Assembly: GCA_000002445.1 (NCBI GenBank)
Contig: CP000067.1
Coordinates: forward strand, 992,001 to 1,056,000
From: Trypanosoma brucei
Lineage: Eukaryota
DNA: 64,000 nt
Direction of reading: 5' to 3'
A program made the translations under genes and the position numbers. This document shows, piece after piece, positions 14,341 through 31,045 of this stretch (position 1 is its first letter; every line of letters starts with the position of its first letter). The notes beneath the pieces were generated by a model. That model saw only the letters and a program-made list of their open reading frames with translations, was not told the DNA's origin and searched no databases.

Positions 14341-15266
14341 TGCAAAAATAAACCATTCCTCCAAAGCTTTAACATCACCCACAAACATAACGACAAAGTT
14401 AAAAATCACATAGACATAAATAGTTCTTATGTAACAATTAACAGAGCAAAACATGATAAATTTCACACCCTCTCCAAAAAAGGAAAAAAAATTCGACAGA
14501 GCTCCACAAATTAGGTTGGAGGCCAACCTTACCATTTTCGTACCTGGCATACTGAAGGCAAATGGAAGAAAAGTATGAGGTGTTGACATATGCGGGATCG
14601 TAGTAAGCAACATCACACATAGGGGGAGGGAATGACTGAAAACGCAAACAAATACAAATGATGAAATACGAAGATACAAACCAAGCGGTGCTATTGCGCA
14701 CACGTGAGGGGCGTACAAGGATTTTCCTCATATTGGTTGCGTTGCTTCAGAATAATGGTATGGATGCAACAGTTAGCCACGGAAAAGGCACAATAGCATT
14801 TGCATTCGACACAGTAGAGAAAGGGGAGAGATGTGTACACATAAACCAATATAACAATAAGGGGAGAAAACATCGAACCGAGCAGTTGGTAAAAATGGTG
14901 ATAGGGTAGCGGTTGTAATATTGACATAATAAAACAGGCACTGCCACATTAAAAGATGTTTTTGAACAGAGTTGTGAGTCGGCAGGAGGTGCGTGCACAG
15001 TAATTAAATGCCGGGACCACAACATCCACACTACAGACAGTTATGAAGAGTAGACCATAACATGTGTTTAGTGAGGCAGGGGATAAACCAAAAAAGGATC
15101 TACAAGACATGATTAACATATTTGCAAGGGGGCCGAAACAAAAACATATAACAACGTTAACATGTGTGGTAAACGTAAATGGGAAAAGGAAAAATTACGA
15201 ACCTTTGCAACATACACCACCAACACATAGGGTAACACAAGCTTTCCACAGTTAAAGCGAAAACAA

Positions 15267-18200
15267 TTAATTCCCGTGAAGCTCACGCTCCAATCCATGA
15301 TTGGAAATTATAATGAGTGACGCACTCCTAAGTGTACTGACAGAGTGCTCACTGCCAACTGCTGCACAGTGATCGACCACTCGACCCACTTTCACTGCAA
15401 TACGCCGTATAACTCCTTCGCAATATTCCTCATTCCACGTGGCTTTCGATGACGGCGGGAGGCTCACCTGCCAGCGCTCGCATAAAGGCATCAATAGTTT
15501 CTGTCTTTGGGATAGAGGGACTGTACCGAAAACAGCGTGCAAACAGCTATCAATCATCTGCGAAGTTCCACTTAATACGCCACGTAAGGATCCCGTATCG
15601 CTGAAGGAAGTGCTTGACAGATCCCCGTCCTCGACAACCTCGTGGTCCAACCTCAGTGCTGCGAAGGACCGTCCGACTACAGCGTTTAGTTGGTACATTT
15701 CAACAGGCTCAGGGACGCCACGCAACGACATGGATCCAAGAGCTGTCACGTCAAGTTGCCCACGCTCTGAATTGCTTAGCGAAAGATATGCCGCGCGCGT
15801 CAGCAGCACCTGACCACCATTAGCCACACTTTCTGTTCGCGCTGCCATGTTTGATGTTCGCCCGTAGTAATCGTAGCCTTTTGTCACTTCGTCATGACGG
15901 ATATCGCAAAGACCAGTGTGGACCCCGACACGCACGCGCAACCCATTCCACAGTTGGCGATAAACCTCAGGATCCAACCGTGCGGACGGTGCCTTGTATT
16001 CGTTATCGTCATCTGCACGCTGCCTCTCAAACTCACGATACGAATCGTCGAATGCTGTGGTGCCCCACTCATGGCACAGGAAGCACCGCTGTAAGTCGGA
16101 CGCAAGCTGTGCAGCAGCAAAAGGTTTTTTACAAGCAATCATAAACGAGTCCCCAACAGTCTTTACCTCATAGCATCCGTACTGTACGATGAGTGAGCGG
16201 ATAAGACGGTGGTGTGTTGACACGGCATCAGGCATCAGCTCAGGGTGTGCTGCCCACTGCGCTGTGCTGCTCTCTATGTCAGTAAAGATTAGCGTTACGG
16301 GCTCCACCGGCTCCTTGGGAGCACTGTCATTGTCACGCGCACCACGGCGCAGAACATAGAGCACCACCACCAGAGGCGCAGCAAACAAAGCCAAGGCGAC
16401 GAGGGAACCAACAATAACTCCGGCAAGTTGTGCGGACGACAACTTAATGGCGTTAGGATCAGCGTAGCGTATCAATGGCGTGACGGGCGAGGTTAATGGC
16501 GGTACGGAGGCATTTAATGCACGTGCCAGTGACCACATGGAAATACGCGTTGCGCCATAGTTCACGACACACACCTCTCCTTGTTCAGGGACTGGGTCAT
16601 TGGCTGTGAAGCACTCCTTCTCCTCTTCCTCTTCAAAAGGACCGTACCGCATTTCATCCGCGGTAATGATAGATTGCATGTAGATGGTGTCAAGCAGCGT
16701 TTTGGGTGTCACATACTCCATGCGTGGGAGGACGGCTTGAGCAAACCGTGCAGCAGCGTACCCCAGCAACGGCAGCGGCTTCCATGCTGATGAGTCTGGC
16801 AATGCGGTATGAAATTCTCTTACGATCTCTGATGACGTATTGGCGTCTGCCCAGTGAGGTAAACTTGTCGCGAACTGCACACGCTCAGCGTTCGGGTTAC
16901 CATTGAATGCGCTGACCAGCTCATCATACATCAGGGCAACGTCGAAGAATGGGATGAGCACACGCACATCTGGGTTGCGATCCAGGTGCGCTGCGAGCAA
17001 GGAAGGGTCACCGGGGGCAAGACCAATAACAAACGCATTCCCACGGTTTGGCAGGCGCCCAACAAGGGTGGCATTGTCATCCAGCACAGCTACCGTTTGC
17101 AGTGTTCCGCCGTGCATCCAAACAATCTTCCGCAGTGCGACCTCAATGATGGTGGCATCAGCTCCACGTACGATGGCAGACATAGGGGCGCTGGCACTTG
17201 TGTTTGTCACGTAACCCACAACAACAAACAACTGCTGCTCGAGTGTGGGTGAAAGTTGAATCACGTTTTTGCCACGATGATGCAGGCGTGGTGTAAGCAT
17301 TACGGGGTCAACGAAGGCAACTTCGGCAATGGACAGCATCGCATCGTCAACGACACCAAACACAGCCGTCACACTCCTTGTGTCAAGCTGATGCTGCAAT
17401 GTTCTGGCACTTTCCGCTGAGGATGATGCCATTGAATGAAAGAACAGTTGTCGTGAAAGAACTGAATCCTTTTCGCTGATCGGTGAGTGCAGTGCCGCTG
17501 ACATCGACGCATATGTATCCACAGGTAGCGCCGTATCAAACAAAGTTAAGGACAGGATACTCATCGGTGATGGGATTCTCGGTTTGTTTATGTAACACTT
17601 TTTGGAATCAAAAATTGTTACTCCGCCGTTGACTGGAAATAATCTATAGCTACTACCAATAACGTTTATGTATACCACACTTCCTCCCTGATTACAGTTG
17701 CATGCTGCTCCTCGCTCACCGGCCCCACCTTTGCAGTCTCCACCAAAATCACCAATCACAAGGTCGTCAATAACATAACGGCGCTGGTTATACAGTGACT
17801 CCATGAATGCCTTCCTGCTTGTTAGCCACTCCCGACTACTTAGCGCCTGGGACAGCACTTCTCCCGCAATCCACCCATACACCATAAGCCTCCCATCCAC
17901 GTCGTCGTGGTCGAAGTTATCCGTGCCATTGAAAACAGTCACTCCAGGATTAGCGCTCAGGTACGACCTCATGTGATCCTGAAAGCGCCTGATTGCTTGG
18001 TATCGTATGTCTGCTGCTAGTGGATTTGTTCCAGTCAATATTACCTGTCCAAATTTCAAAGGCGCCCCTGCAGCTTCCAATGCCTCGCGCCACGCTCCTA
18101 CGATAGAAAACTCGAGTGCCGAAGGAGCCAGTACATAAGCGTCGCGTGTACGTTTGTCAGCTACCATCTTTTTCATAAACTGTATTGAATCTTTTCCAGG

Positions 18201-29293: not shown

Positions 29294-31045
29294 TGAATAC
29301 GTGAAGGAAGCAATGAATGGCTTGCTTTAGGTGAGTGGCCGTATGTGTACGCGTGCTTGTTGTCTACAAAAGTTGTGTGGGAGGTGGGTGCAGTGCAAAG
29401 AAATTTGGTGGGATAAAATAAGTGTTAATGTTAGATATGATAGTGCTGCACCGGTATTAAGTCACATAGTTGTATCTTTTTTCTGTTTTCATCTGGATGA
29501 CGTTTCCTTCACCGAGCCGCTGCATGTCATTACTTCCATTGGTATTCGCATTTTTTATATTTGAGAACGATTCAAATCTTATTTATGTTTTCTTTTGTGA
29601 ATTTTAGTTGCAATCTTACTTTTCACCTCGTTTTGTTGCCGTTGTTTTCGTGCTTTTCTACATTCTTTTGCCCATGTGAAAGGGAACATGGGCGTCCGTG
29701 TGCGTGAAAAGCTGCGGATCCCGCTGCTCTTAGCGAATAACGTCAGCGTTGAATTCCACCTGATACAGATAATTTATAAACGGGTACTCGAAATGTCAAC
29801 ATGCTGCTGAGCAGAGCCCAATGCTCTGAAGGGCGAGAGGGGAAATAAGGAGTTGCTGATGGTATCTTTGTTCGACTGCTGCCTTTTGGTGGCGGCGCAT
29901 GGAAGACGACACATATATTTGCCCGTTCATGCACGTAAGGTCGTAGCCCGTGTCGTGTGGCGGGGGACTCTTACTCCCATTTGCCCTGCTGCACTTGTCT
30001 TAACTCCGCTCCATGTTTCTCACCATTCCTTTTTCCGGTGTATCAGAAGTATGAACCATCTTCACGTGAAAAAAAAATAATCAGGGACACCGTTTATGAT
30101 GCTGCGCTGTTAGTCACGTGAGTTTTCGTACGCAGCTCGCCTGCGAACCGTTTGGGGAAAAGGAAGTCACTTGCAGAAGCATGACCTGGTCTCAAAATAG
30201 TGTGTATCGCTCTGTATGGCGGCGTGGAAACACAGATATCGGTTCTGATTGACATATTTTGTACCTTTCCTGCGGCTAGCCTACCTACTACACGGGTTCC
30301 CCGCTTTCTTTTTCTCTAACTCCTCGTACCGTTGCTGCTAGAGGCGTCTAAAAATACAGAGGGAAACAATTTCCCTTTATACTTTCCTTTTCCTTCTTTG
30401 CCAGTGTATCACTACTGCACCGTATCAGCAGTAAGATTCCTTCCTTACCTAGAACCAACCCGGGAAACTGCGGCGGCAGGTGCTCCACCTTCGAACTGAG
30501 TTGGTCTTCGGACTGATGCTACTGGGCCATTTCTCCTCTTTCTTTCGTTAAAGCCCTAACTAAAAAGTGTAGGAGTGGAGGGGGTTTGAAATTTTGTGTA
30601 GGGTTAACAGAGGGCCTCAGTTAAACTCTCAACGACTTATCATCGTCCTCCGTTCTCAGCATCACACTTCCTGCACGATGGGGTGAATTTTCTTTTTTTT
30701 TGACTCACCCCTCGCCTCAGCTTCCCTTTTCCCATGAGTCTGTGACTTTAAAGAGCATATGTGTGGTCGAGAGCTCACCAATTTGTGCCGCTGCAACTAC
30801 GGGGAAAAAGGCCAAATTTCCGAAGCAACCTCCTCCCATGAAACAAAAAGAAAATTAAGGTGCGTACGCACAATGAAGGACAGCGCACACACGCGTGCCC
30901 ACCACGCTCTCTTTCCCTCACTAGCCTTCGTACCGACCAGCATCAAGCATCATTTTTCGCTGGATGTTAGTGAAACTCACAGCGCCAGTTTGCAGCCGTA
31001 CAGCTCTCCCTCCCACCGCTGCGTACGCTTCAGTGCTAATTTGCC

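What the first reader, a model, noticed from the sequence alone, without database searches (positions are those of the whole stretch)
14514..29414. Tandem array of about 2.9 receptor-type adenylate cyclase genes with a 5161-bp period
Three complete ORFs of about 1232 aa each sit head-to-tail with identical spacers of about 1.46 kb. Each ORF has a signal peptide, a large extracellular domain, one TM helix and a class III cyclase domain. This matches the GRESAG4/ESAG4 multigene family of African trypanosomes. The repeat boundaries are sharp: the array starts at 14514, mid-unit in the 3' flank of copy 1, and ends at 29414, about 120 bp upstream of copy 3. These points mark the original duplication breakpoints. 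Arrays like this tend to collapse in assemblies, so the true copy number in the organism may be higher.
Basis: partly seen in the sequence, partly recalled or inferred. Interest (0 to 1): 0.7.

Follow-up and report, generated by a model that had tools for sequence, protein, structure and literature searches.

The report
Known trypanosome adenylate cyclase gene array
This is a real head-to-tail array of three receptor-type adenylate cyclase genes (GRESAG4; Tb927.4.3860, .3870, .3880) on chromosome 4 of the Trypanosoma brucei reference genome, and it is already annotated and published, so it is correct but ordinary.

Summary
Three intact minus-strand ORFs (1232, 1232 and 1234 aa) repeat with a period of 5161 bp. 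The two 1462-bp spacers differ at 2 positions. The repeat runs from 14516 to 29414.

[quoted passage not shown] Each has a signal-like hydrophobic segment, two periplasmic-binding-protein-like domains, one transmembrane helix and an intact class III cyclase domain. That domain is 76-80% identical to the crystallised GRESAG4.1 and GRESAG4.3 domains.

The array is not an assembly artefact. The copies differ at 6-14% of residues, and the differences fall in discrete patches. The same architecture, with the same boundaries, occurs in T. b. equiperdum (2 copies) and T. b. gambiense (at least 6 gene models, with assembly gaps).

The 5' 1.7 kb of each gene carries old isoforms shared between subspecies (dS 0.16-0.44). 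The 3' 1.9 kb and the spacers are homogenised within each genome (dS at most 0.005).

One qualification concerns the breakpoints. A 590-bp linker found only at internal junctions shows that the two outer boundaries were not simply joined to each other.

Jackson et al. 2010 list this array as number 25. Novelty: already known. Interest is low.

The parts
14516..29414 (-). Whole tandem repeat: 2.89 units of 5161 bp holding three complete GRESAG4 genes
   Evidence: Self-identity at lag 5161; repeat families D1-D8; boundary alignment
15267..18965 (-). Copy 1 CDS, 1232 aa. It is the last gene of the array in transcription order and equals AAZ10977/XP_844536 (Tb927.4.3860).
   Evidence: ORF list; Pfam; exact protein match
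20428..24126 (-). Copy 2 CDS, 1232 aa. It equals AAZ10978/XP_844537 (Tb927.4.3870).
25589..29293 (-). Copy 3 CDS, 1234 aa. It is the first gene of the array in transcription order and equals AAZ10979/XP_844538 (Tb927.4.3880).
18966..20427 (-). Intergenic spacer between copy 2 and copy 1 (1462 bp). In transcription order it is 751 bp of 3' flank, the 590-bp linker, then 121 bp of 5' flank.
24127..25588 (-). Intergenic spacer between copy 3 and copy 2 (1462 bp). It differs from the other spacer at 2 positions.
14516..15266 (-). The 751-bp 3' flank of copy 1, shared with the other two copies (19677-20427 and 24838-25588). The repeat ends here.
   Evidence: 99.87% identity over 751 bp
29294..29414 (-). 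The 121-bp 5' flank of copy 3, shared with 18966-19086 and 24127-24247. It contains a pyrimidine-rich tract followed by AG, which I infer to be the trans-splice acceptor region.
   Evidence: 100% identity over 121 bp; sequence read. The splice-site role is inferred and not shown.
19087..19676 (-). The 590-bp linker found only at internal junctions (second copy at 24248-24837). It is absent from both outer flanks. It holds a 128-aa ORF (19120-19506) that is probably not a gene.
17452..18778 (-). Variable, mosaic part of the gene in copy 1 coordinates (aa about 63-505): the membrane-distal binding-protein-like domain and the start of the second one. The equivalent stretches lie about +5161 and +10322 bp away in copies 2 and 3.
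15580..17451 (-). Homogenised part of the gene in copy 1 coordinates: most of the second binding-protein-like domain, the transmembrane helix and the cyclase domain. Synonymous divergence between copies is at most 0.005.
15329..15579 (-). Second, smaller variable patch, in the cytoplasmic C-terminal tail (aa about 1130-1213). Copy 3 is the divergent one over most of it.
21523..21579 (-). Transmembrane helix of copy 2 (aa 850-868, VIVGSLVALALFAAPLVVV)
   Evidence: Kyte-Doolittle 19-residue peak of 2.74, the only strong peak
20845..21477 (-). Class III cyclase catalytic domain of copy 2 (aa 884-1094)
   Evidence: PF00211 E=1e-37; PDB 1FX4 and 1FX2; catalytic motifs intact
12733..14112 (-). Downstream neighbour: Notchless-like WD40 gene (Tb927.4.3850). 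It is single-copy flank.
31046..34327 (-). Upstream neighbour: DEAD/H RNA helicase (Tb927.4.3890). It is single-copy flank.

Best explanation
The region is the annotated three-gene tandem array Tb927.4.3860/.3870/.3880 on chromosome 4 of Trypanosoma brucei brucei TREU927. The genes lie inside a long minus-strand RNA polymerase II polycistron, between a Notchless-like WD40 gene and a DEAD/H helicase gene.

Each gene encodes a GRESAG4 receptor-type adenylate cyclase. The parts, in order, are an N-terminal signal, two Venus-flytrap (periplasmic-binding-protein-like) ectodomains, one transmembrane helix, a class III catalytic domain with the trypanosome-specific insert, and a C-terminal tail. From published work on the family, the enzyme becomes active when two catalytic domains dimerise, probably under control of the ectodomain. 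The ligands are unknown.

Shown here:
- An adenylate cyclase gene just downstream of the helicase is ancestral, because T. vivax has one in the same position.
- The outer boundaries and the 590-bp linker are identical in three T. brucei subspecies, so the founding duplication predates their split. The amplification appears specific to the chromosome 4 lineage, because the only chromosome 8 paralogous locus examined, in T. b. equiperdum, holds a single copy.
- Copy number has since changed (2, 3 and at least 6 in different assemblies) and chimeric copies exist. This is what unequal crossing-over and gene conversion produce.
- Homogenisation covers the spacer, the first 150 nt or so of the gene and the 3' 1.9 kb.
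- The 5' 1.7 kb, which encodes the distal ligand-binding domain, persists as at least three old isoforms shared between subspecies.

Inferred: the array supplies both gene dosage (trypanosome genes lack individual promoters) and a small set of alternative sensor domains on a common signalling module.

Published RNA-seq shows that all three copies peak in tsetse proventricular forms.
For: Identity:
- Exact protein matches to TREU927 GRESAG 4 entries on a 1,590,432-bp record.
- Gene IDs and order confirmed by the GTF in the supplement of PMC8483307.

Architecture:
- Pfam PF25495, PF25493 and PF00211, E from 1e-37 to 1e-132.
- One transmembrane peak at aa 850-868.
- The catalytic domain aligns without gaps over 230 aa to 1FX4 (79.6% identical) and 1FX2 (75.8%).
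- Motifs FTDIESST, EVKTVGDSFM, RVRVGVHTG, YDYYG and NMAAR are intact in all three copies.

A real array:
- The copies are 86-94% identical at protein level, and the differences lie in patches.
- The same layout (U-121-gene-751-590-121-gene-751-D) occurs in T. b. equiperdum CM010675.1, with 2 copies and no Ns, and in T. b. gambiense FN554967.1, with at least 6 gene models.

Mosaic and concerted evolution:
- 418 variable sites fall in 89 runs, against 234 +/- 8 in shuffles (0 of 2000 shuffles as low).
- dS is 0.16-0.44 for aa 46-560 and at most 0.005 for aa 561-1110.
- In the 5' 1800 nt, 296 of 325 sites that vary among the TREU927 copies also vary among the gambiense copies. In the next 1650 nt the figure is 0 of 5, with 6 fixed differences between the subspecies.
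- Spacers differ at 2 positions within TREU927, 5-7 within gambiense and 17-22 between TREU927 and the other two subspecies.
- The first T. b. equiperdum copy is a chimera, copy-3-like and then copy-2-like.

Ancestry:
- T. vivax has helicase followed by an adenylate cyclase.
- The chromosome 8 paralogous locus has one adenylate cyclase, 55.5% identical.

Literature:
- Array 25, 'Adenylate cyclase, GRESAG4, Tb927.4.3880', 3 copies in T. b. brucei and 4 in T. b. gambiense, PHI p<0.001, GARD 9 breakpoints (PMC2854126).
- Normalised counts in proventriculus versus midgut day 28: 705 v 97, 589 v 84 and 383 v 66 (text).
- The dimerisation model comes from PMC6027212.
Against: - Nothing contradicts the identification.
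- Enzyme activity, membrane topology, ligand binding and the splice and polyadenylation sites were not tested here.
- dN/dS in the variable region is about 0.5. That fits relaxed or mixed constraint and does not by itself show selection for diversity.
- The gambiense count rests on an assembly with two 100-N gaps. One of its copies may be misassembled.
- The TREU927 count of three could not be checked against reads.
- The single-copy state on chromosome 8 was checked only in T. b. equiperdum, which also has the smallest chromosome 4 array.
- The origin of the 590-bp linker is unexplained.
Confidence: 0.93

Rival explanations
1. The array is an assembly artefact: one gene was falsely duplicated in the assembly.
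For: The spacers are nearly identical (2 differences in 1462 bp). The 3' 1.9 kb of the genes is almost identical, which is the pattern false duplications can show. The published analysis notes that assembled repeat numbers can be arbitrary.
Against: The three copies differ at 418 sites, grouped in patches, and encode proteins only 86-94% identical. Each isoform has its own counterpart in another subspecies. Independent assemblies of two other subspecies show the same multi-copy architecture, including one with no gaps.
Confidence: 0.01
2. The genes are ESAG4 copies in or derived from a telomeric VSG expression site, and not chromosome-internal GRESAG4.
For: The domain architecture is the same. 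ESAG4 proteins appear among the homologues.
Against: The neighbours are RPB2, a NOP2-type methyltransferase, Notchless, a helicase, kinesin-13, an amino-acid transporter and calpains. No VSG or other ESAG-type gene appears among the ORFs of 300 aa or more that were scanned. Identity to proteins named ESAG4 is only 46-54%, against 96-100% to the GRESAG4 entries of chromosome 4.
Confidence: 0.01
3. A recent, simple head-to-tail duplication had breakpoints at 14514 and 29414 that were joined directly, and the differences between copies arose afterwards by point mutation.
For: The boundaries are sharp. The spacers and the 3' halves of the genes are almost identical.
Against: Directly joining the two breakpoints would give a spacer of 751 + 121 bp. 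The real spacer has an extra 590 bp that is absent from both flanks. Synonymous divergence in the 5' part is 0.16-0.44, and 91% of those variable sites are shared with gambiense copies. The isoforms are therefore older than the subspecies. The variable sites cluster in conversion-like tracts. The boundaries themselves may still be the original ones if filler DNA was captured at the first junction.
Confidence: 0.1
4. The diversity in the N-terminal domain is a neutral leftover. Gene conversion simply fails where the copies are already too divergent, and nothing selects for different ligand-binding isoforms.
For: dN/dS is about 0.5 in the variable region, with no excess of amino-acid changes. 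Conversion is known to need sequence homology, so divergent tracts protect themselves.
Against: All ORFs stay intact. The isoforms persist across three subspecies despite ongoing conversion and copy-number change. The variation lies almost wholly in the membrane-distal binding-protein-like domain. This evidence is suggestive only.
Confidence: 0.4

Closest known systems
Tb927.4.3860, Tb927.4.3870 and Tb927.4.3880 (GRESAG 4, putative), T. b. brucei TREU927 chromosome 4; array 25 of Jackson et al. 2010 (PMC2854126)
   Same: It is the same object. The three protein sequences are identical to AAZ10977, AAZ10978 and AAZ10979. The gene order matches, and the unit length agrees with the published alignment of 5171 sites. 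The published result also matches: 3 copies in T. b. brucei, more in T. b. gambiense, and significant recombination.
   Different: Nothing differs. This analysis adds three details: the structure of the boundaries and linker, the split between a homogenised and a non-homogenised part of the gene, and a 2-copy state in T. b. equiperdum.
GRESAG4.1 and GRESAG4.3 catalytic domains (PDB 1FX2 and 1FX4)
   Same: The alignment is gap-free over 230-231 residues, with 75.8% and 79.6% identity. It includes the trypanosome-specific insert between alpha3 and beta4, and all catalytic motifs are present.
   Different: They are different paralogues of the family. The ectodomains were not compared, because no ectodomain structure was found in the PDB by sequence.
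ESAG4, the bloodstream-form flagellar adenylate cyclase of VSG expression sites
   Same: The domain architecture and family are the same (PMC6027212).
   Different: Identity is 46-54%. The location is chromosome-internal, in a housekeeping polycistron. Published expression peaks in the tsetse proventriculus and not in the bloodstream.
Tb927.4.3750 (AAZ10966), an inverted GRESAG4 paralogue about 30 kb away and outside the window
   Same: Residues from about 575 to 1250 are almost 100% identical to the array copies. In gambiense, nucleotide identity is 97% over 2.1 kb of the CDS.
   Different: Its N-terminal 570 residues are strongly diverged. It lies on the opposite strand across a convergent strand switch. 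Its flanks share no homology with the array.
Other T. brucei tandem arrays with mosaic or concerted evolution (for example the GRESAG4 arrays at Tb927.4.4470, 6.760, 7.6080 and 8.7860, and the ISG65 array)
   Same: They share the head-to-tail arrangement in a polycistron, conversion mosaics and subspecies-specific copy numbers.
   Different: This one is small (3 copies). It shows a very sharp divide between a diversified 5' part and a homogenised 3' part.

Membership tests
Class III nucleotidyl cyclase (catalytic homology domain) | Sequence match to the Guanylate_cyc profile (PF00211) above the curated threshold | tested here: met
   128.5-129.8 bits against a cut-off of 21.9, at aa 884-1094 (886-1096 in copy 3), in all three copies
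Class III nucleotidyl cyclase (catalytic homology domain) | Two metal-binding Asp, the adenine-specifying Lys and Asp, and the transition-state Arg and Asn-x-x-x-Arg | tested here: met
   FTDIESST, EVKTVGDSFM, RVRVGVHTG, YDYYG and NMAAR are present in all three copies and align to the same residues in 1FX2 and 1FX4. Which residue plays which role comes from general knowledge of class III cyclases.
Class III nucleotidyl cyclase (catalytic homology domain) | Converts ATP to cAMP | not testable with these tools
   Needs an enzyme assay or yeast cyr1 complementation
Trypanosomatid receptor-type adenylate cyclase (ESAG4/GRESAG4 family) | Architecture: signal sequence, two binding-protein-like (Venus flytrap) ectodomains, one transmembrane helix, catalytic domain and C-terminal tail | tested here: met
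   PF25495 (aa 169-312) and PF25493 (aa 464-835), E from 1e-54 to 1e-132. One hydrophobic peak at aa 850-868, and a hydrophobic segment MALLLFSNVLPAHS after Met32. Cleavage of the signal peptide was not predicted with a dedicated tool.
Trypanosomatid receptor-type adenylate cyclase (ESAG4/GRESAG4 family) | The trypanosome-specific insert of about 36 residues (Delta-subdomain) between alpha3 and beta4 of the catalytic domain | tested here: met
   The gap-free alignment to 1FX2 and 1FX4 runs through this stretch. The feature is described in PMC6027212.
GRESAG4 (as opposed to ESAG4) | Chromosome-internal location, outside telomeric VSG expression sites | tested here: met
   The genes are flanked on both sides by housekeeping genes on the same strand. 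The sequence belongs to the chromosome 4 record of TREU927. The supplement's GTF, which lists the mRNA models for Tb927.4.3860 and .3880 and a fragment for .3870, puts the array at about 1.006-1.021 Mb.
GRESAG4 (as opposed to ESAG4) | Identity with database entries named GRESAG 4 | tested here: met
   Exact matches to AAZ10977, AAZ10978 and AAZ10979. These names are annotations, not tested functions.
T. brucei tandem gene array under concerted or mosaic evolution (Jackson 2007, 2010) | Head-to-tail copies on one strand inside a polycistron | tested here: met
T. brucei tandem gene array under concerted or mosaic evolution (Jackson 2007, 2010) | Paralogues within a genome are more alike than orthologues between genomes over part of the unit, and variation is arranged in conversion tracts | tested here: met
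   Spacers differ at 2 positions within TREU927 and at 17-22 between TREU927 and the other two subspecies. The 3' CDS has 5 variable sites within TREU927 and 6 fixed differences between TREU927 and gambiense. The runs test gives 89 runs against 234 +/- 8. The published PHI test gives p<0.001.
T. brucei tandem gene array under concerted or mosaic evolution (Jackson 2007, 2010) | Copy number varies between strains | tested here: met
   2 copies in T. b. equiperdum IVM-t1 (gap-free locus), 3 in TREU927, and at least 6 gene models in gambiense DAL972, whose assembly has two gaps. The counts come from assemblies and not from read depth.

The most novel reading that the evidence does not exclude
The array may work as a small cassette system. 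Gene conversion keeps one common signalling module identical in all copies: the second flytrap domain, the transmembrane helix, the cyclase domain, the UTRs and the spacer. It even reaches the inverted paralogue Tb927.4.3750 about 30 kb away. Selection, meanwhile, would preserve at least three old, trans-subspecific versions of the membrane-distal ligand-binding domain. That would give proventricular-stage parasites several sensors feeding one output. The unexplained 590-bp junction-only linker would then mark an unusual founding event, either captured filler DNA or a lost flank.
Probability: 0.3. Interest if true: 0.3.

Novelty: already known. Interest (0 to 1): 0.1.

Why it matters
For a genome scan, this is a correct call on an ordinary, annotated feature of a reference genome, and it needs no follow-up as a discovery.

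Biologically, GRESAG4 cyclases matter. The family is greatly expanded in African trypanosomes. It has been implicated in dampening host innate immunity and in cAMP-dependent movement through the tsetse fly. Its ligands are still unknown.

The sharp split seen here, between conserved old ectodomain isoforms and a homogenised signalling half, is a tidy example of domain-restricted concerted evolution. It could guide the choice of ectodomains for ligand screens. The general phenomenon is already published for this very array.

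Tried and rejected
- Tandem Repeats Finder found nothing, because its longest period is 500 bp. Lag-identity and the repeat finder were used instead.
- I looked for the source of the 590-bp linker. It has no match elsewhere in the window, at the Tb927.4.3750 locus or at the chromosome 8 paralogous locus. No whole-genome trypanosome BLAST is available here.
- I tested the 128-aa ORF in the linker as a possible gene. 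It stays open in all three subspecies, but 4 of the 6 substitutions separating TREU927 from the commonest version in the other subspecies are non-synonymous, GC3 is low and there is no Pfam hit. I rejected it as a gene.
- I hypothesised that the last copy is regulated differently because its 3' flank differs. The published counts show all three copies rising 5.8- to 7.3-fold in the proventriculus, so the idea has no clear support.
- I tried to convert window coordinates to chromosome coordinates by requiring an AG upstream of published transcript 5' ends. No offset fitted, so I dropped it.
- Rfam and tRNA scans of the window found nothing.
- TREU927 itself is not in the contig index. The look-ups of Tb927.4.3750 and of the helicase returned no TREU927 locus, so TREU927 loci outside the window could not be fetched.
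- I considered predicting the ectodomain structure but did not run it. The tool returns no coordinates, so the variable patches could not have been mapped onto the model.

Full report

Yes. All 16 ORFs of at least 300 aa in the window lie on the minus strand. Three of them are the reported genes: 15267-18965, 20428-24126 and 25589-29293, encoding 1232, 1232 and 1234 aa.

Identity between the sequence and itself shifted by 5161 bp jumps from a background of about 25% to 89-100% at 14501-14600. The repeat finder returns three-copy families spaced 5161/5161 bp. Near the 5' ends of the genes the spacing changes to 5161/5164 and 5161/5167, because copy 3 has two 3-bp insertions.

Aligning the edges base by base puts the left boundary at 14516 and the right boundary at 29414. 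The right boundary lies 121 bp upstream of the ATG of copy 3.

The two spacers (18966-20427 and 24127-25588) are each 1462 bp and differ at 2 positions. Tandem Repeats Finder reports nothing only because its longest period is 500 bp. Matches of this length and identity cannot be chance.

**2. What is it?**

Each ORF matches three Pfam families:
- Peripla_BP_A-cyclase_1 (aa 169-312)
- Peripla_BP_A-cyclase (aa 464-835)
- Guanylate_cyc (aa 884-1094), with E-values from 1e-37 to 1e-132 across the three families

Each has one strong hydrophobic peak, at aa 850-868. Each also has a hydrophobic, signal-like segment (MALLLFSNVLPAHS) after Met32. Long N-terminal leaders before the hydrophobic core are usual in this family.

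The catalytic domain aligns without gaps to the crystallised GRESAG4.3 (1FX4, 79.6% identical) and GRESAG4.1 (1FX2, 75.8%) domains. The alignment runs through the trypanosome-specific insert. The metal-binding, substrate-specifying and transition-state motifs are intact in all three copies.

An exact-sequence look-up identifies the three proteins as AAZ10977, AAZ10978 and AAZ10979. [quoted passage not shown] RPB2 and the helicase in the window are also exact matches to TREU927 entries on that record.

By consecutive numbering, and from a published GTF, the genes are Tb927.4.3860.3870 and .3880, at about 1.006-1.021 Mb.

The neighbours are RPB2, a NOP2-type methyltransferase, Notchless, a helicase, kinesin-13, a CRAL/TRIO protein, an amino-acid transporter and calpains. 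The genes are therefore chromosome-internal GRESAG4 and not expression-site ESAG4. Proteins named ESAG4 are only 46-54% identical.

**3. Is the array genuine?**

Yes. The copies are not identical. Protein identity is 93.7% (copies 1 and 2), 85.7% (1 and 3) and 87.0% (2 and 3).

Independent assemblies show the same architecture with the same boundaries:
- T. b. equiperdum IVM-t1 (CM010675.1) has helicase, two copies, then Notchless, with no Ns.
- T. b. gambiense DAL972 (FN554967.1) has at least six cyclase gene models, interrupted by two 100-N gaps.

Copy number therefore varies between strains, or at least between assemblies. The TREU927 count of three cannot be checked without reads. Jackson et al. 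themselves warn that assembled repeat numbers can be arbitrary.

**4. Anatomy of the unit**

In transcription order each internal spacer has three parts:
- 751 bp of 3' flank
- a 590-bp linker
- 121 bp of 5' flank

The 751 bp also follows the last copy (14516-15266). The 121 bp also precedes the first copy (29294-29414).

The 121 bp is a pyrimidine-rich stretch ending in AG, about 70 nt upstream of the ATG. This is what a trans-splice acceptor region looks like, but that role is an inference.

The 590-bp linker (19087-19676 and 24248-24837) occurs only at internal junctions. It is missing from both outer flanks and matches nothing else available here.

The linker contains a 128-aa ORF that stays open in all three subspecies. 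However, 4 of the 6 substitutions separating TREU927 from the commonest version in the other subspecies are non-synonymous, and the ORF matches no Pfam family. It is probably not a gene.

The boundaries are old, being shared by three subspecies, but they were not simply joined. Either filler DNA was captured at the founding junction, or one outer flank was later replaced.

**5. How the array evolves**

The differences between copies are strongly clustered. The 418 variable sites fall into 89 runs, against 234 +/- 8 in shuffles (0 of 2000 shuffles as low). Which copy is the odd one changes from tract to tract.

Divergence splits sharply by region:

| Region | dS | dN/dS |
|---|---|---|
| aa 46-560: distal flytrap domain, interdomain stretch, start of the second domain | 0.16-0.44 | about 0.5 |
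| aa 561-1110: rest of the second domain, transmembrane helix, cyclase domain | at most 0.005 | too few substitutions to estimate |

A second, small variable patch lies in the C-terminal tail.

In the 5' 1800 nt, 296 of the 325 sites that vary among TREU927 copies also vary among gambiense copies. The isoforms pair up across subspecies:
- copy 3 with the first gambiense copy
- copy 2 with gambiense copies B, E and G
- copy 1 with the second equiperdum copy and gambiense copy C

In the next 1650 nt, only 5 sites vary within TREU927 and none of them is shared. Six sites are fixed differences between the two subspecies.

The spacers behave in the same way. They differ at 2 positions within TREU927, 5-7 within gambiense and 17-22 between TREU927 and the other two subspecies.

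So the 3' half and the spacer are homogenised within each genome, while the 5' isoforms are older than the subspecies. The first equiperdum copy is a chimera, copy-3-like and then copy-2-like, as expected after unequal crossing-over.

The homogenised block extends beyond the array. Tb927.4.3750 is an inverted paralogue about 30 kb away across a convergent strand switch, and it is almost 100% identical over aa 575-1250.

**6. Deeper history**

In T. vivax the syntenic locus runs calpain, CRAL/TRIO, kinesin, hypothetical gene, DnaJ-like gene, helicase, and then an adenylate cyclase 40.6% identical to copy 2. A cyclase at this position is therefore ancestral.

The paralogous block on chromosome 8, examined in T. 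b. equiperdum, has a single cyclase, 55.5% identical. It also keeps a 430-bp remnant of the helicase-cyclase intergenic region. Jackson 2007 places Tb927.4.3860 at the end of the chromosome 4/8 duplicon.

The closest T. congolense homologue (59% identical) is also tandemly repeated.

**7. How it most likely works**

From the literature, not shown here: these enzymes are activated when two catalytic domains dimerise, probably under control of the flytrap ectodomains or of membrane stress. Their ligands are unknown (PMC6027212).

Trypanosome genes have no individual promoters, so tandem copies raise dosage (PMC1855330).

Published RNA-seq shows all three copies at their highest in proventricular forms:

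| Gene | Proventriculus | Midgut day 28 | Salivary gland |
|---|---|---|---|
| Tb927.4.3870 | 705 | 97 | 30 |
| Tb927.4.3880 | 589 | 84 | 19 |
| Tb927.4.3860 | 383 | 66 | 15 |

My inference is that the array gives both dosage and a few alternative sensor domains on one common signalling module. Whether the N-terminal diversity is selected or merely escapes conversion is open. dN/dS of about 0.5 does not decide it.

**8. Comparison with what is known, and verdict**

This is not just similar to a known system. It is a known, annotated locus of a reference genome. Jackson et al. 2010 list it as array 25: 'Adenylate cyclase, GRESAG4, Tb927.4.3880', chromosome 4, 3 copies in T. b. brucei and 4 in T. 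b. gambiense, PHI p<0.001, GARD 9 breakpoints.

The breakpoint inference needs the linker caveat, and the copy-number caveat is reasonable but untested.

Novelty: already known. Interest: low (0.1). The only loose end is the origin of the 590-bp junction-only linker.

Noticed in passing
Outside the window; L006 10001-13825 (the T. b. gambiense orthologue); protein P0029: Tb927.4.3750 is an inverted GRESAG4 paralogue about 30 kb from the array, across a convergent strand switch. It is almost 100% identical to the array copies over aa 575-1250 but strongly diverged in the N-terminal 570 aa. Homology stops at the ends of the CDS. This suggests gene conversion between inverted copies at a distance.
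   Followed up: partly
L001 14480-18058 (T. b. gambiense FN554967.1, the in-array copy next to a 100-N gap): This in-array copy has 0 mismatches to gambiense's own Tb927.4.3750 orthologue over alignment columns 301-2000, yet it carries a copy-3-type C-terminal tail. It is either a real conversion from the inverted paralogue into the array or a misassembly in DAL972.
   Followed up: partly
window 19120-19506 and 24281-24667 (-): A 128-aa ATG ORF lies wholly inside the 590-bp junction-only linker and stays open in TREU927, gambiense and equiperdum. Most substitutions are non-synonymous, GC3 is low (0.41) and there is no Pfam hit, so it is probably not coding.
   Followed up: yes
L009 16105-22322 (T. 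vivax SOPI01000101.1): The T. vivax syntenic locus has an adenylate cyclase gene about 1 kb downstream of the helicase, 40.6% identical to copy 2, running off the end of the fetched locus. It also has a DnaJ-like gene between the hypothetical gene and the helicase that was not found in the T. brucei window.
   Followed up: partly
L008 14779-15215 versus window 30557-30989: The chromosome 8 paralogous block in T. b. equiperdum has lost the helicase and Tb927.4.3900 homologues. It keeps a 430-bp remnant (75.7% identical) of the helicase-cyclase intergenic region upstream of its single cyclase gene, and its CRAL/TRIO gene is truncated to 280 aa.
   Followed up: partly
L007 685-8709 (T. congolense CAEQ01002552.1): The closest T. 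congolense homologue (59-60% identical) is also tandemly repeated, with a period of 4605 bp. The 8.7-kb contig consists only of cyclase copies.
   Followed up: no
window 48745-51123 and 53964-56525 (-): Two diverged calpain-like paralogues (DUF1935 plus Peptidase_C2) lie close together on the same strand. They are separated by an AT-rich stretch, with GC of 0.35 at 52-54 kb.
   Followed up: no
window 58000-62400: A gene-poor, AT-rich stretch (GC 0.33-0.34) has positive AT skew, several short A-rich tandem repeats and no ORF of 300 aa or more. Its nature was not examined.
   Followed up: no
window 45120-45175: A (TAA)n microsatellite of about 19 units lies just upstream of the CRAL/TRIO gene.
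   Followed up: no
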